In this document: positions 28,829-47,251 of the stretch, piece after piece
How the letters are laid out: each line of letters begins with the position of its first letter
Numbering within the stretch: position 1 is the stretch's first letter
IMG/VR virus record: IMGVR_UViG_2690316195_000003
DNA: 49,242 bases
Origin: a virus
Taxonomy: Duplodnaviria > Heunggongvirae > Uroviricota > Caudoviricetes
Direction: 5' to 3' (one strand)
Notes under the pieces: model-generated
Told to the model about the DNA's origin: nothing
The model's input: the letters and a program-made list of their open reading frames with translations, nothing else
The model's database searches: none
Made by a program: the position numbers and the translations under genes

Positions 28829-29212
28829 TCAGCGTTTCAACTGAAAGTGAGGCCCGTCTTTCAGTGTTTTCCAGTCCCCGCCCCATTCGATGGCAGTTCC
28901 CAGCTCTGCGGCAGCCTTCTTAAATGCCTGCGCGATTTTCTCGTACAGAGGCCAGTCCCATGACACCTGGCTGCCAACCCAGGCAACAACATCCACCGCA
29001 TCACCGGTCAGGTGGCGGCTGTTCATGGTCTGGCTTTTCCCTTCCGCGACCAGCTGTTTCTGGCGTTCTTTCGTGCGCAGCCCTTCCGTAATACCGAAAT
29101 CAACCTCCGTCAGCTCCAGCGCACGGCGAACGACAGCAACCAGCTGTGGTTTAACGCCCTCCAGATTTTTTTCACTGCGACGGCTGAATCTGAATTTACC
29201 CGACATATTCAC
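28829..29212 (-). CDS. endolysin, peptidase M15-type (L-alanyl-D-glutamate peptidase-like)
   Basis: SRHLTGDAVD and GPHF metal-ligand motifs typical of M15 cell-wall peptidases; 127 aa; follows holin genes. Confidence 0.7.
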   Translation of the reverse strand: MNMSGKFRFSRRSEKNLEGVKPQLVAVVRRALELTEVDFGITEGLRTKERQKQLVAEGKSQTMNSRHLTGDAVDVVAWVGSQVSWDWPLYEKIAQAFKKAAAELGTAIEWGGDWKTLKDGPHFQLKR

Positions 29213-29484
29213 CTCAACAATGGAAAGATTTTTGTGACGTTCCCGCGTGCGCGTATCACCAGCACGCAGAACAGCAGGTTAAAAAACACTTCCAGCCAGC
29301 CCGTTGCTAACGGGCGACCACACAGATAGCTGAGGGGCGCAAAGGCATACAGCAGCATCAGCAGCCACGCCAGCCATGACATCAGCGGTTTATGTCTGGA
29401 ATCACGGCGACGATAAAAAAAGAGCGTCAGCACGATAACCGTGCATAACGCTACATTCAGCAATCCGGGAAGGTTACTTAACAT
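29209..29484 (-). CDS. holin-like / lysis membrane protein
   Basis: 92-aa protein with hydrophobic helices; strong ribosome-binding site ggaggagg before the ATG; 4-bp overlap with the endolysin start. Confidence 0.5.
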   Translation of the reverse strand: MLSNLPGLLNVALCTVIVLTLFFYRRRDSRHKPLMSWLAWLLMLLYAFAPLSYLCGRPLATGWLEVFFNLLFCVLVIRARGNVTKIFPLLR

Positions 29485-29866
29485 TGCCGCCTCCTCCACC
29501 CCGCAGACGGGAGAACAGGCCGGACACCAGTGATGCAATATCCTGCTGGTGGATGAACGAGAGAATCTTCACCGACACCACTGACACCAGCACTGCACAC
29601 AGTGCGTCGACAGGCGCACCGTCAAACCCTGTATGCTTTACCAGCCAGGATGCCAGAACCTCTGCGCCCAGCACGCCGATAATGAACGACACCAGAAAAT
29701 GCGCCGCCACACGCCAGGCTGAAAGCGCCTGCGGCATCGTTGCCACAAATAACGCCCCGGCGAACGCACCAAACACAATCCCGAAATCCGTTCCGGTAAA
29801 CAGCCCGAATACCGTCGCCCCGCCGAGCGCCACAGCCGTACCGGAACCGGATAAGGGTTCAGACAT
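29474..29866 (-). CDS. holin
   Basis: 130-aa protein with Gly/Ala-rich hydrophobic segments; ribosome-binding site gggagg before the ATG; first gene of the lysis cassette. Confidence 0.5.
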   Translation of the reverse strand: MSEPLSGSGTAVALGGATVFGLFTGTDFGIVFGAFAGALFVATMPQALSAWRVAAHFLVSFIIGVLGAEVLASWLVKHTGFDGAPVDALCAVLVSVVSVKILSFIHQQDIASLVSGLFSRLRGGGGGNVK

Positions 29867-30041
29867 GCTTTTTCCTCCCACAAATAAAAAAGGGCCTCCA
29901 GCGGCCCGTAAAAACACCCTGTCAAAGGCACCCGCAGATGCCTTTTGTGTGGTGTTATCTGATGTGATGTGCGCCGGGCGCGGCGCGGATATGAAAAAGG
30001 CCCGCCGCAGCGAGCCTGTTTTCAATGAGTGCAAAATTCAA

Positions 30042-30785
30042 TTATTCTTGAGTAACACTTAAACTCATCTCATTGAATGCAGCCATCCTGTAACCTGCCG
30101 GTGTAACACCAAAATAACTCCTGAATACGCTGATAAAATAAGATGTAAAATTATAGCCGCACTGAGCAGCGATTCTGTTGATGGCGCAACGAGATTGATT
30201 CAACAGCATTGCTGCCATTCTCATTCTCTCTGTAAGCAACAACTCACTGAAACAGGTGCCTTCTTCTTTCAGTCTTTTTTTTAACAAACTTTCACTGATA
30301 CATAACCGCGAAGACACATCTCTCAGAGTCCAGTTTGCTGCAATGTCCGTACGAAACAATGCACTAAGCCTGTCACTAATATTGCTAATACACGCGGTCA
30401 GAAACGACGAAAACATCTTCTCTGATGAGAAAAACGCCAGACACGAAAAGGAAAGCATTTCCGCTAAATTGTCCGTATGAATCTTTTCCTCACAAAGATA
30501 ATCAATCAGGATGCCCATCAATTCTGCCTTCGGAAAACTCACGCAAAGATATCGTGGTATTTGCCGGACTAAAACTACATCCTGTTTTTCGTCTCCACAC
30601 AACAGGTAACGGCTAATTGTCGATTCACTGAGACTTATTCGCCGAAAACATTCCGAAAAGGGCAATAACGATCCAGCTCCCCCCCTGACAAGAAGTGCAC
30701 TACCACTTTCAAGAGAGAGCTCTTTTCCTTCAAAGAGCACAACAAACGGGGAATGAACAAAAACAACAGAACAGGCTTCATTCAT
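30042..30785 (-). CDS. AraC-family transcriptional regulator (prophage moron)
   Basis: C-terminal AraC-type helix-turn-helix region (WTLRDVSSRLCISESLLKKRLKEEG...INRIAAQCGYNFTSYFISVFRSYFGVTPAGYR); start placed at MNEACSVVF; sits between the Q-dependent terminator and the holin. Confidence 0.8.
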   Translation of the reverse strand: MNEACSVVFVHSPFVVLFEGKELSLESGSALLVRGGAGSLLPFSECFRRISLSESTISRYLLCGDEKQDVVLVRQIPRYLCVSFPKAELMGILIDYLCEEKIHTDNLAEMLSFSCLAFFSSEKMFSSFLTACISNISDRLSALFRTDIAANWTLRDVSSRLCISESLLKKRLKEEGTCFSELLLTERMRMAAMLLNQSRCAINRIAAQCGYNFTSYFISVFRSYFGVTPAGYRMAAFNEMSLSVTQE

Positions 30786-30905
30786 ATCAATTGCCCTGAC
30801 ATTACTGGTCACAAGATAAGTATATATCGATTTACAAAAATACAAGCCGAAAGACCAGTATTCGCAACCACCAGCACGTTTTATGTTCTCTGCCGTTTTT
30901 CGGAC

Positions 30906-30931
30906 ATAAAAAACCCGCTCAATGGCGGGTT
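30906..30931 (-). terminator. tR-prime-like intrinsic terminator downstream of Q
   Basis: Minus-strand hairpin aacccgcc-attga-gcgggtt followed by a T-run; located between the Q-like gene stop and the late genes. Confidence 0.45.
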
Positions 30932-31014
30932 GTATCAAAGTTCATGCGCTTGGTTCACCTCGCGATACAGCTTTGCGAAGCTTAGCAAAATTGAAGCGGT
31001 TTATGCGTAAAAAA

Positions 31015-31557
31015 TCAAGCCGTTTTTTGAGCGAATGATTCTCGCATAGGAATGTATAGCGCATACTCAGCAACGGCCAACCAATTAGCAATTCGCTTTT
31101 CGCATGTGCTAAAACACCACTCTGGGTGTGCATCATTTAGCAATTCAGCCATTTTGCGTTTGGTCATCCCCCGCCCCTCATACCGTTGACGAAGGACGCT
31201 AATCAATCCTGGATGCTCTGCCAGCACCTCACTTATGACCCGATCAATACATAACGCCTCTGCATCAGTACAATGCGCCAGCCAGCTCTTTTGCTTACCG
31301 TTAATCATATCCCGCAAAAAAGCCTCAAGTTCAGACTTGTTCAGACCTGCTTTTTTCATCCTCCGGAGCGCCTCGTTAATTGCCGTTTTTGTCAGCTTTT
31401 TAGAGGCCAACAACTGGTTGAACATATTCCCCGTCTTACCGCCGCCAATATACGACCAGCGCCCCCACATGCGCAGTTTTCCCTGAATCCAGACACTTTC
31501 CAGCGTGGTGAGACGAAGGTGTTCCCCGCTTTTGCCTGTATTTGTTGGGTAAATCAT
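31015..31557 (-). CDS. late-gene antitermination protein Q-like
   Basis: Position after YbcN/YbcO-like genes and before a terminator and the lysis genes; ribosome-binding site ggagaaagg before the internal ATG (MIYPTNTGKS); family call by position rather than motif. Confidence 0.5.
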   Translation of the reverse strand: MIYPTNTGKSGEHLRLTTLESVWIQGKLRMWGRWSYIGGGKTGNMFNQLLASKKLTKTAINEALRRMKKAGLNKSELEAFLRDMINGKQKSWLAHCTDAEALCIDRVISEVLAEHPGLISVLRQRYEGRGMTKRKMAELLNDAHPEWCFSTCEKRIANWLAVAEYALYIPMRESFAQKTA

Positions 31558-31844
31558 AAATAACCTTCCTTTCTCCAGATTTCTTGCGTGCGAAAAACAC
31601 CTTCTGCATGCATCAGGCGTAATTCTTCTTTGGTGTAATCGCTTGTTTTTACCCGCCCGTCGATTAAATCGTGGCACGAGCTACAGGCAATCGCTGCCTG
31701 CATATCGTGTGGCTTTATCGCCGTTCCGCACGTTCCCGCCAACCTGTAATGCGCCAGCACAGAAGTTTCGGGATTGTGATTGCAGTAGCCAGGGATTCTG
31801 ACCTGGCACATCTGGCCCCGCGCCGCTTTACGTAAATCCACCAT
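31554..31844 (-). CDS. YbcO-like (DUF1364) protein
   Basis: N-terminus MVDLRKAARGQMCQVRIPGYCNHNPETSVLAHYR resembles the DLP12 YbcO family. Confidence 0.55.
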   Translation of the reverse strand: MVDLRKAARGQMCQVRIPGYCNHNPETSVLAHYRLAGTCGTAIKPHDMQAAIACSSCHDLIDGRVKTSDYTKEELRLMHAEGVFRTQEIWRKEGYL

Positions 31845-32443
31845 TACGCAAACTCCAGTAGCTGCGCGGCCACATTTTCGACTTGTTCCGGAGAGGAAAA
31901 TTTACGGAACAGAATCCAGTTCCACAGCACATTCAGTACAGATTTATAAACCTGCTGAAACTCGGTTTCGTCCATATTCGCAAACGCGATGGATTTCGCC
32001 CGACGCCCACGACTACCGTCCGGATAAATATGCTCGGTGTAAAATCCGGCCTGAATGGTTACCCACTCGCGGAAAGCCTCAAACGACTTTAGCAATGCCG
32101 TATCACGGGTTCTGTGTGTCGCAACTGTATTCAGATATTGCTCTGCGGCTTCGCTCAGAGCTGGCGTATGTTCCCGGCCTACTGATTCACACAGGTAATC
32201 AACGAAACCGGACACCAGTTTTCGTTCGCGAGGCGTGATCGCCCCACCGACCGGAGTCCAGTAATCGAAACCCAGTTGCAGGAGTTTGAAAAAACGCTTG
32301 TGGAATGCGTAGTTACGCACACGCTTAAAGTCTGCGTGTATCCACTCACCTATTTTGATTTGATGCAGAAAATCGCAACTCTCCGGCGTCGCCGGGAGAA
32401 GTAAACCAGAAGAAGTTTGTTTGACCAGTTGTATATGCGCCAT
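31844..32443 (-). CDS. YbcN-like (DUF1367) protein
   Basis: 199-aa ORF in the nin-region position upstream of the YbcO-like gene. Confidence 0.5.
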   Translation of the reverse strand: MAHIQLVKQTSSGLLLPATPESCDFLHQIKIGEWIHADFKRVRNYAFHKRFFKLLQLGFDYWTPVGGAITPRERKLVSGFVDYLCESVGREHTPALSEAAEQYLNTVATHRTRDTALLKSFEAFREWVTIQAGFYTEHIYPDGSRGRRAKSIAFANMDETEFQQVYKSVLNVLWNWILFRKFSSPEQVENVAAQLLEFA

Positions 32444-32716
32444 TTCTCAATCTCTCGATGGCGCAGTGCAGCAGATGCCAGTTGTTCAGGCTGACGAATG
32501 AAGTATAAATAAACTGGCTCCAGTGTAAAGCCCCCACATTGATGGAATAAAAACCAAACAACAGATTGCTGGGATAAAAACAACGCTTATTATTAAAAGC
32601 GGTTAGACAAATTAAATTTTAATGTTATGCAAATCTGCCAGATTAGCATAATATTTCATTTGAAAACCGCTGAAATAACAATCTTATCGGGATTAATCAT
32701 ATTAAGGTGAGTAAAT

Positions 32717-32803
32717 ATGGAAAACAACAAATCTGCACATTACGCTCCTTTTTTATCTGTAATACTTTTTGTATTTTGTTGTGTATGGGCGGTATTTTTA
32801 TAA
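32717..32803 (+). CDS. 28-aa hydrophobic peptide (MENNKSAHYAPFLSVILFVFCCVWAVFL)
   Basis: ATG preceded by aaggtga ribosome-binding site and followed 18 bp later by a perfect hairpin; polar head plus single hydrophobic helix. Confidence 0.3.
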   Translation: MENNKSAHYAPFLSVILFVFCCVWAVFL

Positions 32804-32820
32804 AACACACCCATAAATAA

Positions 32821-32846
32821 ATCAAACCCGCTACAGCGGGTTTGAT
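32821..32846. terminator. bidirectional terminator hairpin
   Basis: atcaaacccgc-taca-gcgggtttgat: perfect 11-bp stem; 12 nt downstream of the S8 protease stop (minus strand) and downstream of the small plus-strand ORF. Confidence 0.6.
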
Positions 32847-32857
32847 TTATATAGTTG

Positions 32858-35122
32858 TTATACGGAAACTGGCACACGAGCAGGCAATGGATAGTGAGCC
32901 CAGTTATTAGCACTTAAAGCTCTTACGCCATCAGCATAAACTTGTGTGTTTCCATCTAATGATTTTAAAGTTACTACAATAGTTACAGGTAAAGGCTCCA
33001 TTAAGGCCGGTTCATTCGCTCTCAACGTTGTTTTAGCTTGAAGAGCCCAGTTACCCGAAGTAATTCCTTTATTAAATGCCTTGCGATGAATTTTTACTGG
33101 TGACCACTTTCCACCATGCTCAATTTGAGCTCTCTCATATCCAGATTGACCGTTTTCTCCTTCCATAGGTACTTTTCCTTTTATAGTATTATTCTCAATT
33201 AAGCCAAAACTTAGCTCTACGTTCGCGCGAACATATTCACTGCCGGCATTAGGGTTCAGTGGTGGTGCATATGCAGCAGTAATTACAATCTCACCTTTAA
33301 ATTTTCCATTTTGAATAAGTGCCGATGGTATGGGATAGTTTTCCTTTCTCCACCTCACCCCAGGAACCAAGAATGTTTGGAAAATCAGAGTAAACCTATC
33401 ATCACTATCATATAAGGTCTCAATAACCTCATTAGGAATTCCCGCTCCCAAATAGCGTCTTTCACTTGGCGAGTAATCAGGAGAAGATAATTGAGCGGAA
33501 TGAATTAATAATGCTTTAATCAATGATGGTGAAACATTAAAGTCTGAATTAGTGGCTATTCTCTGCCATGTATGCGCAGCTAAACTTGCCACAATTGGAG
33601 CAGCAAAACTAGTACCAAAATTAGAGCAAAGCCTATTATCTGGCCCTACGACCTTTAAACTGCTTGCTCCTACATTCCAAGGTCTATGAACCCCACCGCC
33701 AGCATGGATTATATCTGGCTTTGGAGTAAATACAGGCCCAGGGCCACGACGAGTATATGGTGTCGGTGTTCCAATTTCACTTAAAGCATCATTAGCTTCC
33801 ATATGAGAAACTGAACCAACTGTTAGTGCTCGGACTGACTCTCCAGGAGAGGAAATTAAATCAGCACCTCCAAGCGGATCAGGATTTGGCCATGTACGTA
33901 TAGGTTCATCTACATAATTACCTGCAGCAACTACAAACAAAATACCAAATTTATCGCTGAGCCGATCTAACTCCATCGCAAAATCACTAAACATCTGCTC
34001 ATTACATGGTCCGCCTCCCAAAGACAAATTCCAGACTTTTATATCTGGTCTTTTATTTACAGCATCTGCTAGCCTCAGAATTAAATCTGATATATAAGAT
34101 CCATTTTCATCTAAAGCACAAACATCATGGATTTTAGATTTTGTATCAGGAATCCATGGATGATTGTCATTTAAAAAATGAGCGCCTGATATCAATGAAG
34201 ACACCATAGTCCCATGTTCATAACTCGTATCAGGAGGAATTACGTATGTTTCCCTACTCACTACCCAAGGAGTAATTGTTGCCGCGATGGGGCTTACCCC
34301 AGTGTCAAATACAGCAACAATGGGTAATTCTTCTGATGGTACGGGAAAGCTATTTGTTTCAATGCCAACAGAATCACTTACACTAACCGGGAATGCTGAA
34401 TATTTTGGTTCTGGAATTAACGTTCTTATACCCGGGTAATCAATGAGAATGTCTAATATATATCTATCATTTGGGGATAAATCCATTATCCTTAATAAGG
34501 GAAGACCACATTTTTGTCTAATCTCATCATATTTAACTCCGTGTTGTTCTAATATAGAAATAACGTTTTCATAGTTGTTGTAAGTTGCATCTTCACCTGT
34601 GTACTCAAATAGTCGTACAAGGATGTTTGATGATTCAAACAAACCATCAGTGCCTCCTGGAACCTTCCTATTCTCATCCCAAGGTTCAATGCGCTCAATC
34701 GCGCTTAGATTAGCCAAAATCGCTTTAATATTCCGATGTAAAATGACTGACTCTAATACGTCAAAACAGCCGGCATGAGCAGCAACCAACATTTCATCTA
34801 TTTTGGCATGACCGGCATTTTGCAATCCAGCCTCTTGAGCAATTTTGTTCGGCCTATGCGTTTTGGCTATTCCCTGGTCTCTTAATTTGAAAACCAAAGT
34901 ACCCAAGCTTCCAGGGTACTCTGAAAGTTTGGATTCTAAATAATGTTTACTGGTTGTTAAATTTCTTACTAACCCTTGTCTATATTCGGCTGTTACATCA
35001 ACCAATACCTTTGCCCCACCGCCAGCGTTTACTATTGCACCCAAGTCACTACTGGAAAAAGGGATTCTTAACATTGGGTTTGTAACTTTTGCGTTACTAA
35101 ACTGTGTACCCCTTCTGCTCAT
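32858..35122 (-). CDS. S8 subtilisin-like serine protease, cytoplasmic (no signal peptide), with extra N- and C-terminal domains
   Basis: Catalytic triad motifs in canonical order: IVAVFDTGV (Asp273, codon 34304-34306), YEHGTMVSS (His303), GTSFAAP (Ser505), plus NLSLGGG and VVAAGN subtilase motifs; 754 aa; AT-rich. Confidence 0.85.
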   Translation of the reverse strand: MSRRGTQFSNAKVTNPMLRIPFSSSDLGAIVNAGGGAKVLVDVTAEYRQGLVRNLTTSKHYLESKLSEYPGSLGTLVFKLRDQGIAKTHRPNKIAQEAGLQNAGHAKIDEMLVAAHAGCFDVLESVILHRNIKAILANLSAIERIEPWDENRKVPGGTDGLFESSNILVRLFEYTGEDATYNNYENVISILEQHGVKYDEIRQKCGLPLLRIMDLSPNDRYILDILIDYPGIRTLIPEPKYSAFPVSVSDSVGIETNSFPVPSEELPIVAVFDTGVSPIAATITPWVVSRETYVIPPDTSYEHGTMVSSLISGAHFLNDNHPWIPDTKSKIHDVCALDENGSYISDLILRLADAVNKRPDIKVWNLSLGGGPCNEQMFSDFAMELDRLSDKFGILFVVAAGNYVDEPIRTWPNPDPLGGADLISSPGESVRALTVGSVSHMEANDALSEIGTPTPYTRRGPGPVFTPKPDIIHAGGGVHRPWNVGASSLKVVGPDNRLCSNFGTSFAAPIVASLAAHTWQRIATNSDFNVSPSLIKALLIHSAQLSSPDYSPSERRYLGAGIPNEVIETLYDSDDRFTLIFQTFLVPGVRWRKENYPIPSALIQNGKFKGEIVITAAYAPPLNPNAGSEYVRANVELSFGLIENNTIKGKVPMEGENGQSGYERAQIEHGGKWSPVKIHRKAFNKGITSGNWALQAKTTLRANEPALMEPLPVTIVVTLKSLDGNTQVYADGVRALSANNWAHYPLPARVPVSV

Positions 35123-36251
35123 ATGCTCCTGACTCCTTCAGAATGTTTGAAATTACTCTTGATGTAAGTTTGTACAAATTAGCAAGAACTCTGATAGAAA
35201 ATAATTTTTTATCTTTAGAACGTAACCAACGAATTTCATCTTCGTAAGTGCTTAAATTTACACCTTCCATAAGCGATTGAGCAAGATACAAACGCCTATA
35301 CAATTTATGGTGATTTATCACACTTGCACCTTCAATAACTGCATCCCTACGTGCATCCAAGCTCACCTGTTCAATTATTGCTCCGGATAATCCTTCCGAT
35401 TTTCTTGATAAATCACTTAAATCTAGATCGCTACATATCATATTCTTTAAACGATTTTTCCAAATTAACTCTCTCTGATGTATGTCAGGCAGAGGCATTG
35501 GAATTCTGAAGCTAAATCGCCTCCAGATTGCAGGATCCAGAAGTTGCTCATGGTTAGTTGAGGCAATAATTACCGTATCCTCTGATGCCGCATCCATATT
35601 CTGCAATAGTGAAATGACAACTCGCTGAAGCTCACCTATATCTCTCTCATTACCTCTTGCTCCAGCTAAAGCATCAAATTCGTCTAAAAAAAGCACTGAT
35701 GGCCTCTGCATTACATAATCGAAAACCTGTCTAAGATTTTTGCTGGTTTGTCCCAATAAACTACTAATCAAAGTATCGCAACGCACTGTAAGAAGTGGAA
35801 AATCTAAGCGGGTAGCGATGTACTTAGATAACATAGTCTTACCTGTTCCTGGCTTTCCATACACGAGCATACGACTCGGCAATGCTGCATCAGCTTTAAC
35901 AAACTCATCATAACGTTGAACATTAGTGATAAACTCTTCAACACGGGTACTGATTGCTGCAGGCAGAAAAATCTCTGAACTGTCTAATTTAGGATAACTG
36001 ACATCAACAGTGTTGAGTCGACTATCAATATCTACCGGTAATGAGCCCAGAGATATCCCACCTCCAGCCCTTTGAGCTCCTGCCAACGCCTGGGGAGCTC
36101 TAAGCAACCTTTCTCTTATCATTCTGGCTTGCTTGACCTCCCCTTTTTGTTCGAGCTTATCTGCCAGCAACCCAGCATAATTACTAGCCATCGAAGCATT
36201 TGCCTTTGTTGCACCTTCAATGATTTTTAACACTTCTGATAAATAATCCAT
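35097..36251 (-). CDS. classical AAA+ ATPase
   Basis: Walker A YGKPGTGKTML, Walker B VLFLDEFDAL, and sensor / second region of homology IIASTNHEQLLDPAIWRRFSF; 26-bp overlap with the downstream protease gene indicates an operon. Confidence 0.85.
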   Translation of the reverse strand: MDYLSEVLKIIEGATKANASMASNYAGLLADKLEQKGEVKQARMIRERLLRAPQALAGAQRAGGGISLGSLPVDIDSRLNTVDVSYPKLDSSEIFLPAAISTRVEEFITNVQRYDEFVKADAALPSRMLVYGKPGTGKTMLSKYIATRLDFPLLTVRCDTLISSLLGQTSKNLRQVFDYVMQRPSVLFLDEFDALAGARGNERDIGELQRVVISLLQNMDAASEDTVIIASTNHEQLLDPAIWRRFSFRIPMPLPDIHQRELIWKNRLKNMICSDLDLSDLSRKSEGLSGAIIEQVSLDARRDAVIEGASVINHHKLYRRLYLAQSLMEGVNLSTYEDEIRWLRSKDKKLFSIRVLANLYKLTSRVISNILKESGAYEQKGYTV

Positions 36252-36444
36252 TCAACACTCCCACAACAAAAAGCCACAGCAATCAAAAAATGAGCACGCA
36301 GAATCAAAATACTCTCTAATCGTAACGCATTTTGAGATTTTTGATACGTTTTTTTGTGATTATGTAACGCCAAATGGTCATTTTGTGTCAGAAAAATAAA
36401 TCTTAGTACCGAGAATATGTAGCTTCCATCCTTCATCGTTCTAT
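36252..36444 (-). promoter_or_regulatory. AT-rich putative promoter region for the AAA+/S8 operon
   Basis: About 190 bp AT-rich non-coding DNA immediately upstream of the ATPase start; no -35/-10 elements confidently assigned. Confidence 0.3.
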
Positions 36445-36891
36445 TCATCCCTGATCTCCAAGCCTCTCTCGAAAACCATTCTGATAAAACGCCAGCACAC
36501 GCTGCATAACTTCGCTCTTCCGGCACTCGCGACAGATTATGTTCTGACGCCTGTCGTAGCGGCGTATTTCTCCGTCTGGTAATGACCAGATAAGGTCCGG
36601 ATCAACCACAACCGGTTTCTTCATCTTTGCCCTTGAGAGCTTTTTACGGGCATTTTGCCAGTCCTTACGCGCCTGTTCAGACGGGAATAACCCGTAACCA
36701 GAGTTGTATACATCGCCGCTGGCAACCAGCTCTCTTGCGAGAACGCTCATCAGATATCTTGTCGCACCTGTCTTGACTTCCAGTTGCCGTAACGTCTCGC
36801 GCCCATTCTGGCGCACGAGTTCAACAACCTGCCCCTTAATTTTTTCCCGCTCTTCTTGTGTAAATACTTTTGCCATAAGCGCCTCCGGCAA
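36445..36891 (-). CDS. hypothetical phage early protein
   Basis: 148-aa ORF; basic C-terminal region with CxxC (CRECRK). Confidence 0.35.
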   Translation of the reverse strand: MPEALMAKVFTQEEREKIKGQVVELVRQNGRETLRQLEVKTGATRYLMSVLARELVASGDVYNSGYGLFPSEQARKDWQNARKKLSRAKMKKPVVVDPDLIWSLPDGEIRRYDRRQNIICRECRKSEVMQRVLAFYQNGFRERLGDQG

Positions 36892-37653
36892 TCACTTTTC
36901 CGATACAACACAGCGGGAAGAATCAGTAATCTGGCGAACAATATCCCGGTGCTTGTTCAACTCCCGCAGCGCGGCGCAGACACGCTCCCACTTCTGGACA
37001 TGGCTTTTCGCCCGACGCAGTTTGCGGTTTGCCAGATGCAGCGATGGCAAAATCAAATCATCCGCCCGCGTTTCGGTAAACGATGGCAACGACTGCACAA
37101 TGTCCGCTACAGTATCTGTTTTAATTTCTTCCTGTGTTGCAGCCTCCTGTACTGGTAACGCAACACCTGCGGGCTGAGGAAAAGCCTTACCATCAGTTTC
37201 CGCTACCGATGCTGCTTTCGGCTCTGCTGGTAAATTATCGCCCGGTATGCAGTAACGAAATTTACCGCCCTGATTTACGCGAATCAGACGACCTTTGCTG
37301 ATTGCCATTGCCAGCGTTGAAGCCACTTTGCGTGATGTGGTACCAAACAATGTAGCCAGCTCATCAGCCGTTTGTGGTCCGCGTTGTTCAATCGTCGCGG
37401 TTAAATCGCACTCTGAGATTTTCGCTACTGTTGCTGTGGTGGTTTCTTCCGGCAGTTCTGCCTGCTCTGGCTGTTCCTGCTGAACGTTGTTATCAGCCAC
37501 ACGCCAGGTGTATACGCTTTTATCAACGAAACCAGCCTTTTTCAGTTCCCACAGCTCGTTCAGTACCTCTTCACGACTGATATCAAGTCGCGCAGCGAGT
37601 TCTACCGACGTGGCTTTTCCCATTGCTTTCAGTGCGTCAAAAACAGTCTCCAT
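36892..37653 (-). CDS. putative DNA-binding protein (winged-helix-like N-terminus), phage early region
   Basis: N-terminal [43 protein letters not shown] resembles a winged-helix DNA-binding domain. Confidence 0.4.
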
Positions 37654-37686
37654 TAAAATTTGCTCCCGGTAAAATTACTTATCAAC

Positions 37687-38229
37687 TCAAACAAAACCAG
37701 CCGCTTTCCGGCGTTCATATTCCTGTTTCAGCAACTCAATTGGTGTTGGCCCCGACGGGCGTTCTGGTGCTGCCAGTTGCCGCCGTACGGGCGGAACGCT
37801 GAAGCCGTCACCAACATGCTTTGCCCATTTCGCCAGTTGCCGTTCTGCAAGTCGTTTTAACTCCCCTTCGGTCATCTGGCGCTCAATCCCCTTTGAACGC
37901 ATCTCGAGGCAAATGTGATACAGCACAGGCTGAGACCACGGGTATTTATCGCTTCCGTCGTATCGCCAGGACTCGTTGCGCCAGCGTCGGTACTCCTCCA
38001 TCACAGCATCCACCGTCAGACCGAATGGATTGGCCCCGCTTTCCGAAATCAGCGCCACAAACTCAGCCAGGTCCGGAGGCCATGTTTCACCCGTCCGGCA
38101 GCGGTCCATGCACTGGCGGCAGACCTGTCGGATTTGCTGCTCAGTCATCGCACCAATCTGTGCAATCCAGAGCTTCGAAGGTGCGGCCCCGTTCTTCTGG
38201 GTCCAGCGGTTCGAATAAACCTCCCCCAT
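37687..38229 (-). CDS. replication protein P-like (helicase loader)
   Basis: C-terminal region (...[39 protein letters not shown]...) resembles the C-terminal region of lambda P; start uncertain (ORF extends to 38352). Confidence 0.5.
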
Positions 38230-39247
38230 GAGTTCCCACAACTTCCAGGCCGTTTCCGTCGCTGATAAATCCGTTTTCACGTTCCCACTGCTCACGTGCT
38301 GCCCGAATTTCCTGAACTGCCCGTGATGCGGTGCCACCTGGTGCTGCTGCATGGTTCACCCCCTTGCTGACTGGTTTAACCTGCGCCCTGACGTGATTTA
38401 CGTGACGGGCGAATTTCTGCTCCCACTGAACCTGCGTGAAAACTTTCCCCTCCGCTGCCCAGTAGTCCCGGAAGGCGGCAAGTTCAGCTGGTGTAAATTC
38501 CGGCTCCGGCAGAGCCACTCCCCACAGAGCTGCCCGCCGTCGAAAATCCAGCGACGGATGCCAGCCATCAGTCATCGGAAATTTCCCGATGGGTTCGTTC
38601 AGGCCTTCCAGGTAATCAGGTTCCGCTGTCTGCAACGGCACGCCATTTGCCTCACTGGCCGGAGCACTCTCGCGCACGCGCGCGTTATGTGTGGGGTTTA
38701 TATATCTGTTATCTGTTATCTGGATACCGCATGACAAAGCGTTAGCCTTATCCTTAGGCTTATCCTCAGGCAAAGGGATTGCCTTATCGAATGCCATCCC
38801 CAAAGCCTCAGAAACCCCATAGGACGCGGCTCTCAGCGATTCCCTGGCCTCCCATTTGAGAGGACAATCAGGAATTAAAGCGAATGCCTTTGCCCAGGAT
38901 TTAATGACATTTATCGAGTTTGGCGGATTGTGTTTCGCAGCATTCGGGAGCCAAAAAACTCTGGCTTTGATATCTGCTTTCACCATGCCAAGATTCATGG
39001 CTTCGCCTAAGGCTAAGTCAAAGGCTTCGATATCCCACCCCAACTCTTCAGCCATTGCTGCCCGCCCGGCTTTAAACAACCCAGGAATAATCCCGGTAAA
39101 TGGACTGGTCAGCAGATAAATAAACAAACTCTGTCCACTTGGAGGCAGAGGAGATAACGCCCTAAATTTGGGATCATCCCATATCGTTATTTTTACCTTG
39201 CGATAAGGCTCATTGTTTGCCTTAGTTTTTGGCATGGGATTTGGCAT
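38141..39247 (-). CDS. replication initiation protein (O-like), contains ori-like repeats
   Basis: Position immediately upstream of the P-like gene; internal clustered repeats; start uncertain (ORF extends to 39319). Confidence 0.45.
38700..38790. repeat. iteron / DnaA-box-like repeat cluster (putative ori) inside the O-like gene
   Basis: ctgttatctgttatctgg then ccttatccttaggcttatcctcagg then gccttatcg; TTATCCTCA is one mismatch from the DnaA box consensus TTATCCACA. Confidence 0.4.
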
Positions 39248-39344
39248 ATTTTTAGCCTTAACCATAATTGCCTCATCTGGTGTCGAACCTTCCTCCGGAT
39301 ATAATCTGTGATTCCCCAATCAACAGAACCAAAGGAGGTTCGAC

Positions 39345-39596
39345 ATGTCTTTTACATTTGATAAGTCTGCTCCATTCCCCCAAAAATTTTGGGTGGACAG
39401 TATTACTGGAACCGAGTCAAAAATTTTTAGCACCTCAGGAATGCTCAATCGCGGAGGAGTAAAAATACTTGCCCAGGAATTCCACACACAGGAGCTAAAT
39501 TACGGGGCTTATCACAAACTAGAGTTGATAATGGATGCAACCCAAATTGATGAACTGATCGTTGCCCTACAAAAGCTAAAAGAAAAGATGTCATAA
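39345..39596 (+). CDS. hypothetical protein (antisense-embedded moron candidate)
   Basis: 83-aa ORF with strong ribosome-binding site aaaggagg before the ATG; on the opposite strand to all neighbouring early genes. Confidence 0.4.
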   Translation: MSFTFDKSAPFPQKFWVDSITGTESKIFSTSGMLNRGGVKILAQEFHTQELNYGAYHKLELIMDATQIDELIVALQKLKEKMS

Positions 39597-39899
39597 TCAC
39601 CCCCTAAAAATTACGTGGCGCAGCGGTTGAGCTTTGCTGTAGTCGATCTCATCGCCATACTCAATATCAAGAGCTTGTCCCTGCGCCAGTTCCATCCACC
39701 GAATGTGTTCTGCGGCTTTTTCTTTATCTTTGATATTGATGAACAACAGCGTTGACGAGGGATACCCGTTAACAAGATGGCGATGCAGAGAGAGTCGTAT
39801 GGCATACCAGGCAACATTTCGGGCTATACGCTGAAGCAATGTTTCGCCTTCCAGTGTTTTAAGTCGGTATTTTTTCAGTTCATATTTTTCCATCACCAC
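39597..39899 (-). CDS. hypothetical protein
   Basis: 100-aa ORF starting 7 bp after the YdaT-like gene stop; its stop abuts the stop of the convergent 83-aa gene. Confidence 0.35.
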   Translation of the reverse strand: MVMEKYELKKYRLKTLEGETLLQRIARNVAWYAIRLSLHRHLVNGYPSSTLLFINIKDKEKAAEHIRWMELAQGQALDIEYGDEIDYSKAQPLRHVIFRG

Positions 39900-39905
39900 A
39901 TCACC

Positions 39906-40328
39906 TTAATGAACAACAACAGAATCGCCGGACGAACCACCGCCGCTGAAATGCGCTTTCCGGTAAACGGCCTGGACTGCATCATCATGCGCATCAATTG
40001 CCGTACTTAACGCTTCCTGCGCCGCCAGTAATGCACGGCGTTCCAGGGTATCGAAGATGCAGAGTCGGTGACGCAACTCGCGCGGAAGGATTGCCAGAAT
40101 TGCTGGGATCAGCTTCTGAATTTTTTCTCTTTGCGTTTTCGTTTCACCTTTCAACCAACGGTGATAGATATTCTGCTGATTGTTCCAGTCCTTGCCTGGA
40201 ACCAGGGGCAATTCGCCGCCCCCCTGGCGCAGATATTCTTCAGTAATTGCATTGGCTACCCATGCCTGCCCTTTTTCGGCTGCCAGGGCAAACAACACTG
40301 ATTCGATGTGCTCATGCTTGATTTTCAT
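39906..40328 (-). CDS. YdaT-like protein (Rac prophage CII-position protein)
   Basis: N-terminus MKIKHEHIESVLFALAAEKG...; 140 aa; immediately downstream of the Cro-like gene. Confidence 0.55.
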   Translation of the reverse strand: MKIKHEHIESVLFALAAEKGQAWVANAITEEYLRQGGGELPLVPGKDWNNQQNIYHRWLKGETKTQREKIQKLIPAILAILPRELRHRLCIFDTLERRALLAAQEALSTAIDAHDDAVQAVYRKAHFSGGGSSGDSVVVH

Positions 40329-43115: not shown

Positions 43116-46100
43116 ATGAGCACAAAACCACTCTTCCTGTTACGGAAAGCGAAAAAATCATCCGGTGAACCTGACGTCGTCCTGTGGGCAAGCGACGATT
43201 TTGAATCGACCTGTGCCACTCTGGACTACCTGATCGTTAAGTCAGGTAAAAAACTGAGCAGCTATTTTAAAGCTGTTGCCACGAATTTTCCTGTCGTTAA
43301 TGACCTGCCCGCTGAAGGTGAGATCGATTTTACCTGGAGTGAACGCTATCAACTCAGCAAAGACTCCATGACATGGGAACTAAAACCGGGAGCAGCACCA
43401 GACAACGCTCACTATCAAGGCAATACCAACGTCAACGGCGAAGACATGACTGAGATTGAGGAGAATATGCTACTCCCAATTTCTGGCCAGGAACTGCCCA
43501 TTCGTTGGCTTGCTCAACACGGCAGCGAAAAACCGGTAACGCACGTTTCACGCGACGGACTCCAGGCATTACACATTGCTCGGGCTGAAGAACTACCGGC
43601 TGTTACTGCCCTGGCTGTTTCCCACAAAACCAGCCTGCTCGACCCGCTGGAAATTCGCGATCTCCACAAACTGGTTCGTGACACTGACAAAGTTTTCCCT
43701 AATCCTGGTAATTCAAACCTGGGACTGATAACTGCTTTTTTCGAAGCATACCTGAACGCTGACTACACCGATCGAGGACTGCTGACAAAAGAGTGGATGA
43801 AGGGTAATCGTGTTTCACACATCACTCGCACGGCTTCCGGTGCTAATGCTGGCGGCGGAAACCTCACCGATCGCGGCGAAGGTTTCGTACACGATCTGAC
43901 GTCACTGGCGCGCGACGTAGCCACTGGCGTACTGGCCCGTTCAATGGATCTGGACATCTATAACCTTCATCCGGCACACGCTAAACGCATTGAGGAAATT
44001 ATCGCTGAAAATAAACCACCCTTTTCTGTTTTCCGCGACAAATTCATCACCATGCCTGGCGGGCTGGATTATTCCCGCGCCATCGTGGTTGCGTCCGTAA
44101 AAGAAGCACCAATTGGGATCGAGGTCATCCCCGCGCACGTCACTGAATATCTGAACAAAGTACTGACTGAAACCGATCATGCCAACCCTGATCCGGAAAT
44201 CGTGGATATTGCCTGCGGTCGCTCCTCTGCCCCGATGCCGCAGCGAGTAACAGAAGAAGGAAAACAGGATGATGAAGAAAAACCGCAACCATCTGGAACA
44301 ACGGCAGTTGAACAGGGAGAGGCTGAAACAATGGAACCGGACGCAACTGAACATCATCAGGACACGCAGCCGCTGGATGCTCAGTCACAGGTAAATTCTG
44401 TTGATGCGAAATATCAGGAACTGCGGGCAGAACTCCATGAAGCCCGGAAAAACATTCCATCAAAAAATCCTGTCGATGCCGATAAATTGCTTGCTGCATC
44501 ACGTGGTGAATTTGTTGACGGAATTAGCGACCCGAACGATCCGAAATGGGTTAAGGGGATCCAGACTCGCGATTCTGTGTACCAGAACCAGCCAGAAACG
44601 GAAAAAACCAGCCCGGATGTGAAACAACCTGAGGCAGTAGTGCAACAGGAACCGGAAATAGTCTGCAATGCCTGCGGTCAGACTGGCGGAGATAACTGCC
44701 CTGACTGTGGGGCGGTGACGGGCGACGCAACATACCAGGAAACATTCGATGAAGAGAATCAGGTTGAAGCTAAGGAAAAAGATCCGGTGGAAATGGAAGG
44801 CGCTGAACATCCGCACAATGAGAATGCTGGCAGCGATCCGCATCGTGATTGCAGTGATGAAACTGGTGAAGCGTCAGCTCCTGTAGCAACTGAAATCATG
44901 TGGCCGTCATATTTCGAGCCTGGCCGCTATGAAAACCTCCCGAACGAGGTTTATCACTCCGCCAACGGAATAAGCAGCACGATGCTGAAGGATGCCCGTA
45001 TCAGCCTGATGTATTACCACGGACGGCACATTGCCGGAACTATTCCGAACGAGGAAAGTGATGCACTGCTGCGTGGGCGGATCATTCACAGCTATGTTCT
45101 GGAAACGGATAAATTCGCTGATGAATATGCCATTCCGGTACCGGTTCCTGAATATGTGGTTACTACTTCTAGCGAACTGATCGCCATCATTAAAAAACAC
45201 AATGCCAGTCTGCCAGCACTGATGACACCAGAGCAGATGAAAGAGTGGATCGAAAGCTACAACAGCACTCTTATACAGCCACTGTCTGTAAGTGCCGGGG
45301 CCGAAGAAACAGGCATCCTTTACGGTTCGCTTCCGGTGGAATTTCGGCGTATTCCTGAGGGGGAAAAACACACAGCATCAGCAATGAAAGCCTGTATTAA
45401 AGAATACAACGCAAGCCTCCCTCCTCTGTTGAAAACCAGTGGAGCACGGGAGCAGCTTCTGGATCAAATTGAAACTGTAGACCCAGAACTGGCAAAAAAA
45501 GAACGTGCTAAATCTTTGCCTTACAACATCAGTGGCACAAAAGAGCAATTAACCGAAATCGCACGGAAAATTCGCCCGGAACTGGTGACACTGGAGGACT
45601 GGCAAAAACGCCAGCAAGAAGAAAATGCCGGGAAAACGTTTATCAGTCCTGAGATGTATGAACAGGCAAAAAATATTCACGCGGCACTGCAAAACAATAC
45701 CGATGCAGCAAGGCTACTCAACCACCCGGATCGCAAATCTGAAATCAGCTATTTCGGGTTTGATGAAGAAACCGGGCTGGAAATCAGGGTCCGTCCTGAT
45801 ATCGAAATCCGGCTGCCATACGAAAGCATTTGCGCTGACGTGAAGTCAGTCAGCCTCGGTTATGTGCGACAGGAACGACTTAAAGATCGCCTGCACCGTG
45901 AAATTATTGAGCGTGATTATCACCTCAGCGCCGCAATGTATTGCGATGTGGCAAACCTGGACAAATTTTTCTGGATCTTCGTCAACAAAGATGCTGGCTA
46001 TCACTGGGTGGCAGTCGTGGAAGCCTCGCAGGAACTCCTGGAACTTGGTCGACAGGAATATCGCCGGACGCTACGCCAGATAAACGAAGCCCTGGAGACA

Positions 46101-46187
46101 AACAACTGGCCAGCACCGATTACCGAAAGTTATACCGACGAATTAAACGACTTTGATCTTCGTCGTCTTGAAGCACTGAGCATCTGA
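43116..46187 (+). CDS. recE: exodeoxyribonuclease VIII (RecE), long form
   Basis: N-terminus [26 protein letters not shown]... and overall architecture match Rac RecE as recalled; 1023 aa. Confidence 0.8.
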
Positions 46188-46198
46188 GGAAGGACACA

Positions 46199-47251
46199 AT
46201 GAACGAATTAACTCAACAAGAAAATATTAACTCTAATGTTGCGGTTTTCAGCCCTCAGTCCCTGGCTGCAATTCAGACATTTTCCCAGGTAATGGCTTCC
46301 GGCATGGCTACTGTACCGGAACACCTCCGGGGAAATCCATCAGACTGCATGGCCATCACCATGCAGGCGATGCAGTGGCAAATGAACCCTTACGCAGTAG
46401 CTCAGAAAACTTTCGTTGTGAATGGTGTGCTCGGATATGAAGCGCAACTGGTTAATGCCGTAATCAGTACTCGTGGGCCGCTAACCGGGCGTATTGAATA
46501 TGACTGGTTCGGGCCGTGGGAAAAAATTATCGGGAAATTTGAAATCAGGAAGAGCGACAAAGGGAAAGAATATCGTGTACCTAGCTGGAAGCTGGCCGAT
46601 GAAAACGGGATCGGTGTTCGTGTCCAGGCAACACTACGCGGCGAAAGTAAACCACGCGTACTGGAATTACTTCTGGCGCAGGCCAGAACACGTAACTCAA
46701 CGCTATGGGCCGACGATCCTCGCCAGCAGCTTGCCTATCTAGCGCTGAAACGCTGGGCGCGCCTTTATTGCCCCGAAGTGATTCTTGGAGTGTACACCAG
46801 GGACGAACTGGACGAGCCACAGGAAAAAATCATTAATCCGGTTCAGGAACATAAAAACACTTCCGCTTGCCGCGCGGAACGTGAAACAACAATTATTGAG
46901 CAGGATGCCGGGGAAAACTGGATCGATGCTTTCCGTGAACGTATTGAGCAGGCACAAAGCACCGGGGAAACAACAGCACTTCGCCAGGAAGTGGAAGATC
47001 ATAAAAATACACTTGGCGCTCTCTATACGGAACTTAAAGGAAAAGTGGTTCAGCGTCATCACCGTCTCAATGCTATTGCCCGTATCGAGAAGATGATAAA
47101 TGACCTACCTTCTTCAGGTGATCCAGAAGCAGAACAAAAATTTACTGCTCTGGAAAATACGCTGAATGCTGCCCGGCCACATCTGGGTGAATTATATGAG
47201 GCGTATAAAACGACACTGACAGATATGAAACCAGAATATATCGGCTCCTGA
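46199..47251 (+). CDS. single-strand annealing protein partner of RecE (RecT/Red-beta-like; family uncertain)
   Basis: Occupies the recT position directly after recE; sequence differs from canonical K-12 RecT as recalled. Confidence 0.45.
   Translation: MNELTQQENINSNVAVFSPQSLAAIQTFSQVMASGMATVPEHLRGNPSDCMAITMQAMQWQMNPYAVAQKTFVVNGVLGYEAQLVNAVISTRGPLTGRIEYDWFGPWEKIIGKFEIRKSDKGKEYRVPSWKLADENGIGVRVQATLRGESKPRVLELLLAQARTRNSTLWADDPRQQLAYLALKRWARLYCPEVILGVYTRDELDEPQEKIINPVQEHKNTSACRAERETTIIEQDAGENWIDAFRERIEQAQSTGETTALRQEVEDHKNTLGALYTELKGKVVQRHHRLNAIARIEKMINDLPSSGDPEAEQKFTALENTLNAARPHLGELYEAYKTTLTDMKPEYIGS

What the first reader, a model, noticed from the sequence alone, without database searches (positions are those of the whole stretch)
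32821..36444. AT-rich two-gene operon: classical AAA+ ATPase + cytoplasmic S8 subtilase, inserted in the prophage nin region - candidate anti-phage defense system
Two overlapping genes (26-bp overlap, so co-translated) encode an AAA+ ATPase with intact Walker A, Walker B and arginine-finger motifs, and a 754-aa S8 protease with a complete Asp-His-Ser triad, no signal peptide, and about 250 aa of unassigned sequence on each side of the catalytic core. The cassette is visibly AT-rich, has its own AT-rich upstream region and a perfect terminator hairpin, and sits between the replication and Q/nin genes, a variable hotspot in lambdoid phages. An ATPase plus subtilase pair matches the gene content I recall for the IetAS-type defense system from defense-island surveys, but whether this pair belongs to that family or is a distinct ATPase-gated protease system cannot be settled from sequence reading. 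A cytoplasmic subtilase gated by an ATPase suggests an abortive-infection style effector.
Basis: partly seen in the sequence, partly recalled or inferred. Interest (0 to 1): 0.85.

Follow-up and report, generated by a model that had tools for sequence, protein, structure and literature searches.

The report
Known IetAS anti-phage system in prophage
The two genes are a textbook copy of IetAS, an already catalogued ATPase-plus-protease anti-phage / toxin-antitoxin module that NCBI already annotates in dozens of E. coli genomes, here riding as swappable cargo in a Rac-like prophage, so the finding is correct but ordinary.

Summary
Two minus-strand genes overlap by 26 bp: a 384-aa AAA+ ATPase at 35097-36251 and a 754-aa S8 peptidase at 32858-35122.

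It is not a new system. Both proteins match the PADLOC IetA/IetS models end to end and pass NCBI's equivalog cut-offs (IteA 526.6 bits against 510; IteS 1042.4 against 900). IetA is identical to RefSeq WP_000385105.1. The same DNA at 99% identity or more is annotated iteA/iteS in 78 of 5426 complete E. coli genomes and occurs in phage vB_EcoS-683R6.

It is cargo, not a core phage function. A 99% identical prophage in strain A17 carries hokD plus a KilA-N gene in its place. The same pair sits in other prophage slots in Klebsiella, Leclercia, Morganella and Providencia.

The mechanism of IetAS is still unpublished. The best inference is abortive infection, in which the ATPase restrains a toxic cytoplasmic protease until a phage protein triggers release.

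Minor additions from this work:
- The N-terminal region of IetS folds as two ferredoxin-like, prodomain-type modules.
- A 37-nt upstream block travels with the cassette.

Novelty: already known. Interest: low.

The parts
35097..36251 (-). ietA (iteA): 384-aa classical-clade AAA+ ATPase, the antitoxin/regulator partner
   Evidence: - ORF.
- PADLOC IetA PDLC02196, E = 8.9e-143, residues 1-374.
- NCBIfam NF042959, 526.6 bits against a cut-off of 510.
- Pfam AAA, residues 128-253.
- K138, D190/E191, R244/R245 present; pore-loop-1 position reads S164-L165-L166-G167.
- Identical to WP_000385105.1.
32858..35122 (-). ietS (iteS): 754-aa cytoplasmic S8 subtilase, the toxin/effector partner
   Evidence: - ORF.
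- PADLOC IetS PDLC02197, E = 1.3e-300, residues 12-753.
- NCBIfam NF042956, 1042.4 bits against a cut-off of 900.
- D273/H303/N402/S505 invariant.
- Two residues different from WP_032183377.1.
35097..35122 (-). 26-bp ietA/ietS overlap, with AGGAG 3 nt upstream of the ietS ATG (probable translational coupling)
   Evidence: -.
- The same 26-bp overlap occurs in the Klebsiella, Leclercia, Morganella and Providencia cassettes, as read from the called-gene coordinates.
- N15 and P16, which lie upstream of the alternative start M17, are nearly invariant in homologues, supporting the long form.
32817..32850 (-). Terminator-like hairpin 8 nt after the ietS stop codon; it also marks the left recombination junction of the cassette
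   Evidence: - 15-bp perfect stem.
- dG -25.9 kcal/mol, z = -6.7.
- Homology with the IetAS-less A17 prophage ends at 32842.
- A diverged version of the hairpin follows hokD in A17 and 042.
36252..36444 (-). AT-rich (GC 0.347) upstream intergenic region. It contains a conserved 37-nt block at 36319-36355, a candidate promoter/operator.
   Evidence: - GC content.
- No sigma-70 consensus match.
- The block is about 95% conserved against Klebsiella while the coding DNA is about 70% identical.
- The core of the block is kept in Leclercia and Morganella.
32843..36480 (.). The swapped cargo module as a whole (3638 bp), relative to the near-isogenic prophage of E. coli A17
   Evidence: - BLAST: window 29000-32842 and 36481-40000 match L002 at 99.2% and 99.1%.
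- Between those stretches, A17 has 2.3 kb holding hokD, a KilA-N gene and a hypothetical gene.

Best explanation
This is a canonical two-gene IetAS module (spelled iteA/iteS by NCBI), carried as exchangeable cargo (a "moron") in a Rac-like lambdoid prophage. It sits in the variable slot between the replication genes and the nin/Q genes.

IetS is a cytoplasmic subtilisin-family protease and acts as the toxic effector. IetA is a classical AAA+ ATPase of the ring-forming, protein-remodelling kind. It uses ATP to keep IetS harmless in uninfected cells.

When another phage infects the lysogen, a phage protein disturbs this restraint. IetS then cleaves cellular and/or phage proteins, and the infected cell stops growing before the phage completes its cycle (abortive infection).

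Shown here:
- the identity and family membership of both genes;
- intact catalytic motifs;
- the cargo status and mobility of the cassette.

Taken from the literature on homologues:
- the toxin-antitoxin behaviour;
- the requirement for protease activity;
- the abortive-infection phenotype and triggering by a phage protein.

Inferred only:
- that IetA acts directly on IetS;
- that the N-terminal prodomain-like modules of IetS take part in the restraint;
- that this particular allele is expressed and protective in the lysogen.
For: **Membership.**
- Full-length PADLOC IetA and IetS hits.
- NCBIfam equivalog cut-offs passed.
- IetA is 100% identical to RefSeq IteA WP_000385105.1, and IetS differs by 2 aa from WP_032183377.1.
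- 78 of 5426 complete E. coli genomes hold the same DNA at 99% identity or more, annotated iteA/iteS.

**Active enzymes.**
- The catalytic residues are present and invariant.

**Cargo status.**
- The near-isogenic A17 prophage has hokD plus KilA-N at this slot; 042 has QueH plus hokD; C7 has small ORFs plus hok.
- The same pair occurs in phage vB_EcoS-683R6.
- It occupies other prophage slots in Klebsiella, Leclercia, Morganella and Providencia, and a non-phage chromosomal site in Burkholderia.
- PHROGs holds both proteins as recurrent phage families of unknown function.

**Mechanism, from the literature.**
- PMC13069673 states that IetAS was first described as a plasmid-stabilising toxin-antitoxin pair, with the protease as toxin and the ATPase as antitoxin. 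It also reports that protease activity is needed for defence, that an ietA mutant could not be cloned, and that the anti-phage mechanism is unknown.
- bioRxiv 10.1101/2022.08.27.505566 reports that B. cereus ietAS is toxic when co-expressed with the SPbeta gene yosG. Cultures collapse at high MOI, which indicates abortive infection.
- bioRxiv 10.1101/2022.08.21.504612 cloned the E. coli ECOR52 ietAS and notes that the system is often prophage-borne.
Against: - The identity of the tested ECOR52 or Gao et al. systems to this sequence could not be verified.
- The cloned E. coli ietAS alone gave only limited protection against a 29-phage panel.
- The abortive-infection and trigger data come from a distant Bacillus homologue.
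- No consensus sigma-70 promoter lies upstream, so expression in the repressed lysogen is unproven. The cassette could be transcribed only by read-through from the early operon after induction.
- The IetA pore loop has Leu-Leu-Gly where threading AAA+ unfoldases usually have an aromatic residue. A simple "unfold IetS" model may therefore be wrong.
Confidence: 0.9

Rival explanations
1. The module is primarily an addiction (post-segregational killing) module that stabilises the prophage, as IetAS does for plasmid pTiC58. Phage defence would be secondary or absent for this allele.
For: - IetAS was first described as a plasmid-stabilising toxin-antitoxin system (Yamamoto et al. 2009, as cited in PMC13069673).
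- In sister prophages the same slot holds hokD/hok, another toxin-antitoxin killer gene.
- The prophage carries further toxin-antitoxin and killer genes, such as RalR/RalA at 47508-47686.
- The E. coli ietAS alone gave limited protection.
Against: - The two roles are not exclusive.
- Homologues have measurable anti-phage activity that depends on the protease.
- Lysogenisation by IetAS-carrying Pf phages correlates with resistance (PMC11878078).
- A chromosomally integrated prophage gains less from post-segregational killing than a plasmid does.
Confidence: 0.25
2. IetA and IetS form a two-component ATP-dependent protease, with an unfoldase ring feeding a peptidase as in ClpXP, PAN-proteasome or FtsH. 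It would selectively degrade an incoming phage protein and protect the cell directly, without suicide.
For: - IetA belongs to the classical AAA+ clade, which includes the proteasomal ATPases, FtsH and Cdc48. NCBIfam secondary hits include PAN (1e-35), CDC48 and FtsH, and the PDB search gives p97/Cdc48 at 1e-53.
- The tight gene coupling is conserved across genera.
Against: - The toxin-antitoxin genetics do not fit: the protease is toxic without an active ATPase.
- The abortive-infection phenotype of the Bacillus homologue does not fit either.
- The pore-loop aromatic residue is replaced by Leu.
- Subtilases are open-cleft monomeric endopeptidases, not gated chambers (fold matches).
Confidence: 0.12
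3. The pair is a core phage function, for example a regulatory protease needed for the prophage's own replication or lysis decision. This would explain its place in the early operon.
For: - It has the same orientation as the early genes, with no terminator between DUF977 and ietA.
- No consensus promoter of its own was found.
Against: - A 99% identical prophage lacks it.
- Only 78 of 5426 E. coli genomes carry it, although DNA matching the flanking DUF977/DUF1367 genes occurs in more than 4000 genomes.
- The pair occurs at unrelated positions (next to the integrase, inside the lysis cassette) and outside phages.
- Its GC content is about 10 points lower than that of the phage backbone.
Confidence: 0.02

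Closest known systems
IetAS defence system (Gao et al. 2020, Science 369:1077; NCBIfam IteA NF042959 / IteS NF042956; PADLOC IetA/IetS)
   Same: - Same two proteins, full length.
- Same gene order and overlap.
- Intact ATPase and protease motifs.
- IetA is identical to the RefSeq protein carrying that name.
   Different: Nothing detectable at sequence level. Only the particular prophage backbone and flanks differ between carriers.
IetA/IetS toxin-antitoxin pair of Agrobacterium Ti plasmid pTiC58 (Yamamoto et al. 2009, J Bacteriol 191:4656; cited in PMC13069673)
   Same: AAA-ATPase antitoxin plus subtilisin-like serine protease toxin; this pair is the founding member of the family.
   Different: - It is plasmid-borne and was described for plasmid stability and incompatibility, not phage defence.
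ietHAS (Liu-DS4), the three-gene variant with an SNF2-type helicase IetH (PMC13069673)
   Same: It shares the IetA and IetS components and the requirement for protease activity.
   Different: The window has no helicase. The upstream gene is a 148-aa DUF977 protein and the downstream gene is DUF1367. This is therefore the canonical two-gene form.
Bacillus cereus m1293 ietAS (Stokar-Avihail et al., bioRxiv 10.1101/2022.08.27.505566)
   Same: Same family. It is the only member with a known trigger (SPbeta yosG) and a demonstrated abortive-infection phenotype.
   Different: It comes from a distant Gram-positive host. The trigger gene has no known counterpart among coliphages, so transfer of the mechanism to this E. 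coli allele is an inference.
Pro-subtilisins / I9 propeptide inhibitors (pro-subtilisin E 3whi, ProN-Tk-SP 3afg, POIA1 1v5i, PCSK9 prodomain 2w2m)
   Same: - IetS has two beta-alpha-beta-beta-alpha-beta modules directly N-terminal to the catalytic domain.
- Pro-forms give the longest whole-chain alignments, 316-370 residues.
   Different: - The similarity is at fold level only (10-14% identity) and the ferredoxin-like fold is very common.
- There is no Pfam Inhibitor_I9 hit.
- IetS is cytoplasmic, has two such modules, and no evidence of autoprocessing.

Membership tests
IetAS (two-gene form) | An IetA-family AAA+ ATPase that matches the family HMM over its full length | tested here: met
   - PADLOC PDLC02196, E = 8.9e-143, residues 1-374 of 384.
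- NCBIfam equivalog NF042959, 526.6 bits against a cut-off of 510.
- Identical to WP_000385105.1, named anti-phage ATPase IteA.
IetAS (two-gene form) | An IetS-family S8 peptidase that matches the family HMM over its full length | tested here: met
   - PADLOC PDLC02197, E = 1.3e-300, residues 12-753 of 754.
- NCBIfam equivalog NF042956, 1042.4 bits against a cut-off of 900.
IetAS (two-gene form) | The two genes are adjacent on one strand, with ietA upstream of ietS | tested here: met
   - The genes are adjacent with a 26-bp overlap.
- The same arrangement is seen in five other genera.
IetAS (two-gene form) | Catalytically competent ATPase (Walker A/B, Arg finger) and protease (Asp-His-Ser) | tested here: met
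   K138, D190/E191, R244/R245; D273, H303, N402, S505, all invariant in 64 homologues. This was tested at sequence level only.
IetAS (two-gene form) | Confers resistance to phage infection when expressed | not testable with these tools
   Only literature on homologues is available.
IetAS (two-gene form) | Toxin-antitoxin behaviour: IetS is toxic without active IetA | not testable with these tools
   Reported for pTiC58 and ietHAS. It needs cloning of ietS with and without ietA.
ietHAS (helicase-containing variant) | An SNF2-family helicase gene (ietH) in the same operon | tested here: not met
   The neighbours are DUF977 (148 aa) and DUF1367 (199 aa). There is no helicase within the cassette.
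CBASS/CD-NTase-associated TRIP13-HORMA regulators | A TRIP13-type AAA+ ATPase next to HORMA and a cyclase | tested here: not met
   - The TRIP13 models hit only weakly (E = 2.4e-16) through the shared AAA domain, far below the IetA match.
- There is no HORMA or cyclase gene nearby.
Canonical AAA+ proteases (FtsH, Lon, ClpXP, PAN-proteasome) | An ATPase ring coupled to a self-compartmentalised peptidase (M41, S16, S14 or T1), with an aromatic pore loop | tested here: not met
   - The peptidase is an S8 subtilase.
- The pore-loop-1 position reads Leu-Leu-Gly rather than aromatic-hydrophobic-Gly.
- FtsH and PAN models score far below their cut-offs.

The most novel reading that the evidence does not exclude
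IetS may be a cytoplasmic zymogen-like subtilase.
- Two N-terminal ferredoxin-like, propeptide-type modules (about residues 74-147 and 167-237) could keep the active site closed.
- These modules carry an invariant, flexible A86-K87-x-H89-R90-P91 loop.
- The IetA ring, whose pore loop is the non-aromatic Leu-Leu-Gly, might grip rather than thread this region in an ATP-dependent way.
- A phage protein that competes for or poisons IetA would then release an autoprocessing protease.

In addition, a 37-nt operator-like block (36319-36355), which travels with the cassette across at least four genera, may be the autoregulatory site of the module.

Neither feature is described in any paper found in the library searched here.
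Probability: 0.25. Interest if true: 0.45.

Novelty: already known. Interest (0 to 1): 0.12.

Why it matters
For genome annotation, this simply confirms a known defence system.

Biologically, it is one more clear example of lambdoid prophages exchanging toxin-antitoxin and defence cargo at a fixed slot between the replication and nin/Q genes. Here IetAS replaces hokD in a 99% identical backbone.

The one open scientific question is how IetAS works: its trigger, its substrates, and how an AAA+ ATPase restrains a subtilase. This E. coli allele is compact, occurs in a cultivable phage (vB_EcoS-683R6), and now has a confident structural model of IetS. It would be a convenient system for answering that question, but the finding itself does not advance it.

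Tried and rejected
1. **Founding papers not held.** Gao et al. 2020 (DOI and PMC7985843) and Yamamoto et al. 2009 (PMC2704731) could not be read. Their content is cited only through PMC13069673. I therefore could not verify which strain's IetAS was originally tested or its phage spectrum.

2. **No true empty site.** A synthetic query joining DUF1367 directly to DUF977 matched no complete E. coli genome over more than 50% of its length. The slot always holds some cargo. The comparison with A17, 042 and C7 replaced this test.

3. **No promoter found by consensus.** The sigma-70 scan found nothing in the 193-bp upstream region, in either the standard scan or a relaxed scan at 8 of 12 positions.

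4. **Flanking regions unassigned by sequence.** A Pfam scan at E<=10 of IetS residues 1-267, IetS residues 560-754 and IetA residues 1-96 gave nothing usable.

5. **No solved structure.** A PDB sequence search found no IetA or IetS structure.

6. **No mechanistic paper.** A literature search for ietAS plus cryo-EM found no structural or mechanistic study. A search for ietA, ietS and "Ti plasmid" together found nothing.

7. **ECOR52 not located.** Strain ECOR52, the source of the cloned E. coli ietAS, was not among the 60 of 78 genomes listed. Identity to that tested clone remains unverified.

8. **Rejected readings.**
   - TRIP13/CBASS and BrxF/DolB/mad8: only weak P-loop hits.
   - Type VII mycosin: 26.9 bits against a cut-off of 278.
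   - Secreted subtilase: no signal peptide or TM segment.


Full report
**1. Observation**

The window holds two minus-strand ORFs: 35097-36251 (384 aa) and 32858-35122 (754 aa). They share 26 bp.

The first protein has a Pfam AAA domain at residues 128-253. Its Walker A motif is GKPGTGKT with K138, and its Walker B motif is VLFLDE with D190/E191. In a HMMER alignment to p97, R244 and R245 fall on the arginine-finger positions of the second region of homology. The pore-loop-1 position reads S164-L165-L166-G167, where p97 D2 has M-W-F-G.

The second protein has Pfam Peptidase_S8 at residues 268-544. It carries D273, H303, N402 and S505, and all four are invariant in an alignment of 64 homologues.

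Neither protein has a hydrophobic N-terminus or a TM-like segment. The flanking 267 and 210 residues of the protease, and the first 96 residues of the ATPase, match no Pfam family even at E<=10.

The cassette has GC 0.397, against 0.496 and 0.489 in the flanks. A perfect 15-bp hairpin at 32817-32850 follows the ietS stop codon, with dG -25.9 kcal/mol and z = -6.7.

The AT-rich upstream region contains no recognisable sigma-70 promoter.

**2. What it is**

Both proteins hit the IetA and IetS models of PADLOC over their whole lengths, at E = 8.9e-143 and 1.3e-300. Both pass NCBI's curated equivalog cut-offs for "anti-phage ATPase IteA" (526.6 bits against 510) and "S8 family anti-phage peptidase IteS" (1042.4 against 900).

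The DNA of the two genes is found at 99% identity or more in 78 of 5426 complete E. coli genomes. It is always chromosomal and single-copy, and in nearly all of the 60 records listed RefSeq annotates it as iteA/iteS. The window's IetA is identical to WP_000385105.1, and its IetS differs at two residues from WP_032183377.1.

The cassette is also present at 99.7% identity in the deposited phage genome Escherichia phage vB_EcoS-683R6 (ON470595). There it is labelled only "S8 family peptidase" and "cell division protein FtsH". PHROGs lists both proteins as recurrent phage families of unknown function.

The answer is that it is a member, of the canonical two-gene form. There is no helicase, so it is not the ietHAS variant.

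**3. Context and mobility**

The window is a Rac-like lambdoid prophage. It contains:
- an integrase at 48007-49242;
- the RalA sRNA at 47508-47686;
- RecE and RecT at 43116-47251;
- tail, head and terminase genes to the left.

On the minus strand, the gene order around the cassette is as follows:
- DnaT-like replication protein, lambda-P-like protein, DUF1627, DUF977;
- IetA, IetS;
- DUF1367, YbcO, DUF1133/Q-like antiterminator, AraC-family regulator, holin.

The prophage of E. coli A17 is 99.2% identical to window 29000-32842 and 99.1% identical to window 36481-40000. Between those stretches it carries 2.3 kb with hokD, a KilA-N gene and a hypothetical gene, instead of the 3638 bp at 32843-36480. 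E. coli 042 has QueH plus hokD at this slot, and strain C7 has a string of small ORFs plus hok.

No complete E. coli genome has the two flanks directly joined. The slot is therefore always occupied but its content varies.

The left junction falls inside the terminator hairpin. A diverged copy of that hairpin follows hokD in A17 and 042.

The AAA-plus-S8 gene pair was found in five other genera, each at its own location. In the four enterobacterial loci the called-gene coordinates give the same 26-bp overlap.

| Host | Location |
|---|---|
| Leclercia | same kind of slot: replication genes, then ietAS, then DinI, DUF1367, NinG, Q |
| Klebsiella | directly after the lambda-P-like gene |
| Morganella | next to integrase and excisionase |
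| Providencia | between holin and lysozyme |
| Burkholderia | ordinary chromosomal location, 53-bp overlap |

In Pseudomonas, IetS follows a longer 478-aa AAA protein and lies next to Fic and AAA_15/21 genes.

This is the behaviour of a mobile cargo cassette, not of a core phage gene.

**4. How it most likely works**

No paper in the searchable library gives a mechanism. [quoted passage not shown]

Published information on homologues:
- IetAS was first described as a plasmid-stabilising toxin-antitoxin pair, with the protease as toxin and the ATPase as antitoxin. Protease activity is needed for defence, and an ietA mutant could not be constructed.
- The B. cereus system becomes toxic when the SPbeta gene yosG is co-expressed, and cultures collapse at high MOI, which indicates abortive infection.
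- An E. coli (ECOR52) ietAS gives limited protection alone, and the system is often prophage-borne.
- Pf prophages of P. aeruginosa also carry it.

The sequence adds the following.
- IetA is a classical-clade AAA+ ATPase with arginine fingers, the clade of ring-shaped protein remodellers. Its best PDB relatives are p97/Cdc48, and its NCBIfam secondary hits are PAN, CDC48 and FtsH. Its pore loop is non-aromatic.
- The core is followed by a beta-sandwich domain and preceded by two beta-alpha-beta-beta-alpha-beta modules at about residues 74-147 and 167-237.
- This region carries an invariant A86-K87-x-H89-R90-P91 loop of lower model confidence.

My best-supported reading has four steps.
- IetS is a cytoplasmic, possibly zymogen-like protease.
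- IetA keeps it inactive at the cost of ATP.
- A phage product breaks this control.
- Proteolysis then arrests the infected cell.

I put about 0.9 on the identity of the module and about 0.5 on this mechanism. The contact between IetA and IetS, the role of the prodomain-like modules, and expression in the lysogen are all inferences.

**5. Rivals**

- **Addiction module for the prophage.** This is plausible and not exclusive. The slot otherwise holds hok, and IetAS began its history as a stability determinant.
- **Bona fide ATP-dependent protease that degrades phage proteins without killing the cell.** The toxin-antitoxin genetics, the abortive-infection phenotype, the non-aromatic pore loop and the open-cleft nature of subtilases all count against it.
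- **Core phage function.** The comparative data refute it.

**6. Small additions**

A 37-nt block at 36319-36355, lying 68-104 nt upstream of the ietA ATG, reads AAAAAAACGTATCAAAAATCTCAAAATGCGTTACGAT.
- It is about 95% conserved in the Klebsiella cassette, whose coding DNA is only about 70% identical.
- Its core is kept in Leclercia and Morganella and partly in Providencia.
- It contains imperfect inverted half-sites, CGTATC and GTTACG, and a -10-like TACGAT.
- It is a candidate promoter or operator that travels with the cassette. This is untested.

**7. Verdict**

The finding is real and correctly interpreted, but it is already known and already annotated in public genomes. Interest is low, at 0.12. 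Its residual value is as a convenient E. coli model for the unsolved IetAS mechanism.

Noticed in passing
window 36319-36355 (minus strand): A 37-nt non-coding block lies 68-104 nt upstream of ietA. It is about 95% conserved between the E. coli and Klebsiella cassettes, although their coding DNA is only about 70% identical. Its core is kept in Leclercia and Morganella. It has imperfect inverted half-sites (CGTATC / GTTACG) and a -10-like TACGAT, making it a candidate promoter or operator of the cassette.
   Followed up: partly
window 7059-8234 (minus strand): An AT-rich (GC about 0.35) 391-aa ORF is inserted next to the Baseplate_J tail gene. Pfam HSDR_N and HSDR_N_2 (the nuclease-like N-terminus of type I restriction R subunits) match only within roughly the first 135 residues. 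It matches phrog_4225 "endonuclease" (E = 4.7e-149) and has no PADLOC hit. It may be a second, uncharacterised cargo or defence gene among the tail genes.
   Followed up: partly
window 247-1575 (minus strand): An AT-rich (GC 0.35-0.38) 442-aa YadA-like trimeric autotransporter adhesin, with head repeats, stalk and membrane anchor, lies at the left edge of the window. It is possibly prophage-end cargo or adjacent host DNA.
   Followed up: no
window 30042-30938 (minus strand): An AraC-family regulator (298 aa, local GC 0.425) is inserted between the Q-like antiterminator and the holin. This is another moron position, and the gene is also present in the A17 and C7 prophages.
   Followed up: no
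window 47508-47686 (minus strand): A full-length RalA antitoxin sRNA (Rfam RF02694, 215 bits) lies next to the RecE/RecT and integrase genes. It marks the element as Rac-like and adds another toxin-antitoxin module to the prophage.
   Followed up: no
L002 10143-12473; L003 10211-11269; L004 9900-12925 (slot equivalent to window 32843-36480): The slot between DUF977 and DUF1367 in sister Rac-like prophages always carries a hok-family toxin gene plus variable extras (KilA-N, QueH, small ORFs). In the window, IetAS replaces the hok module entirely, so one toxin-antitoxin-type cargo has been swapped for another.
   Followed up: partly
L013 1496-5896 (Providencia) and L011 1860-6847 (Morganella): The same ietAS cassette sits inside a lysis cassette, between holin and lysozyme, in a Providencia prophage. 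In a Morganella prophage it sits next to integrase and excisionase. The cassette therefore moves between several classic moron slots.
   Followed up: no
L014 1605-3041 (Pseudomonas aeruginosa): The IetA partner of a 56%-identical IetS is 478 aa rather than 384 aa, which suggests an extra N-terminal domain in the Pseudomonas subtype. Its neighbours are a Fic protein and an AAA_15/AAA_21 gene, which looks like a defence island.
   Followed up: no
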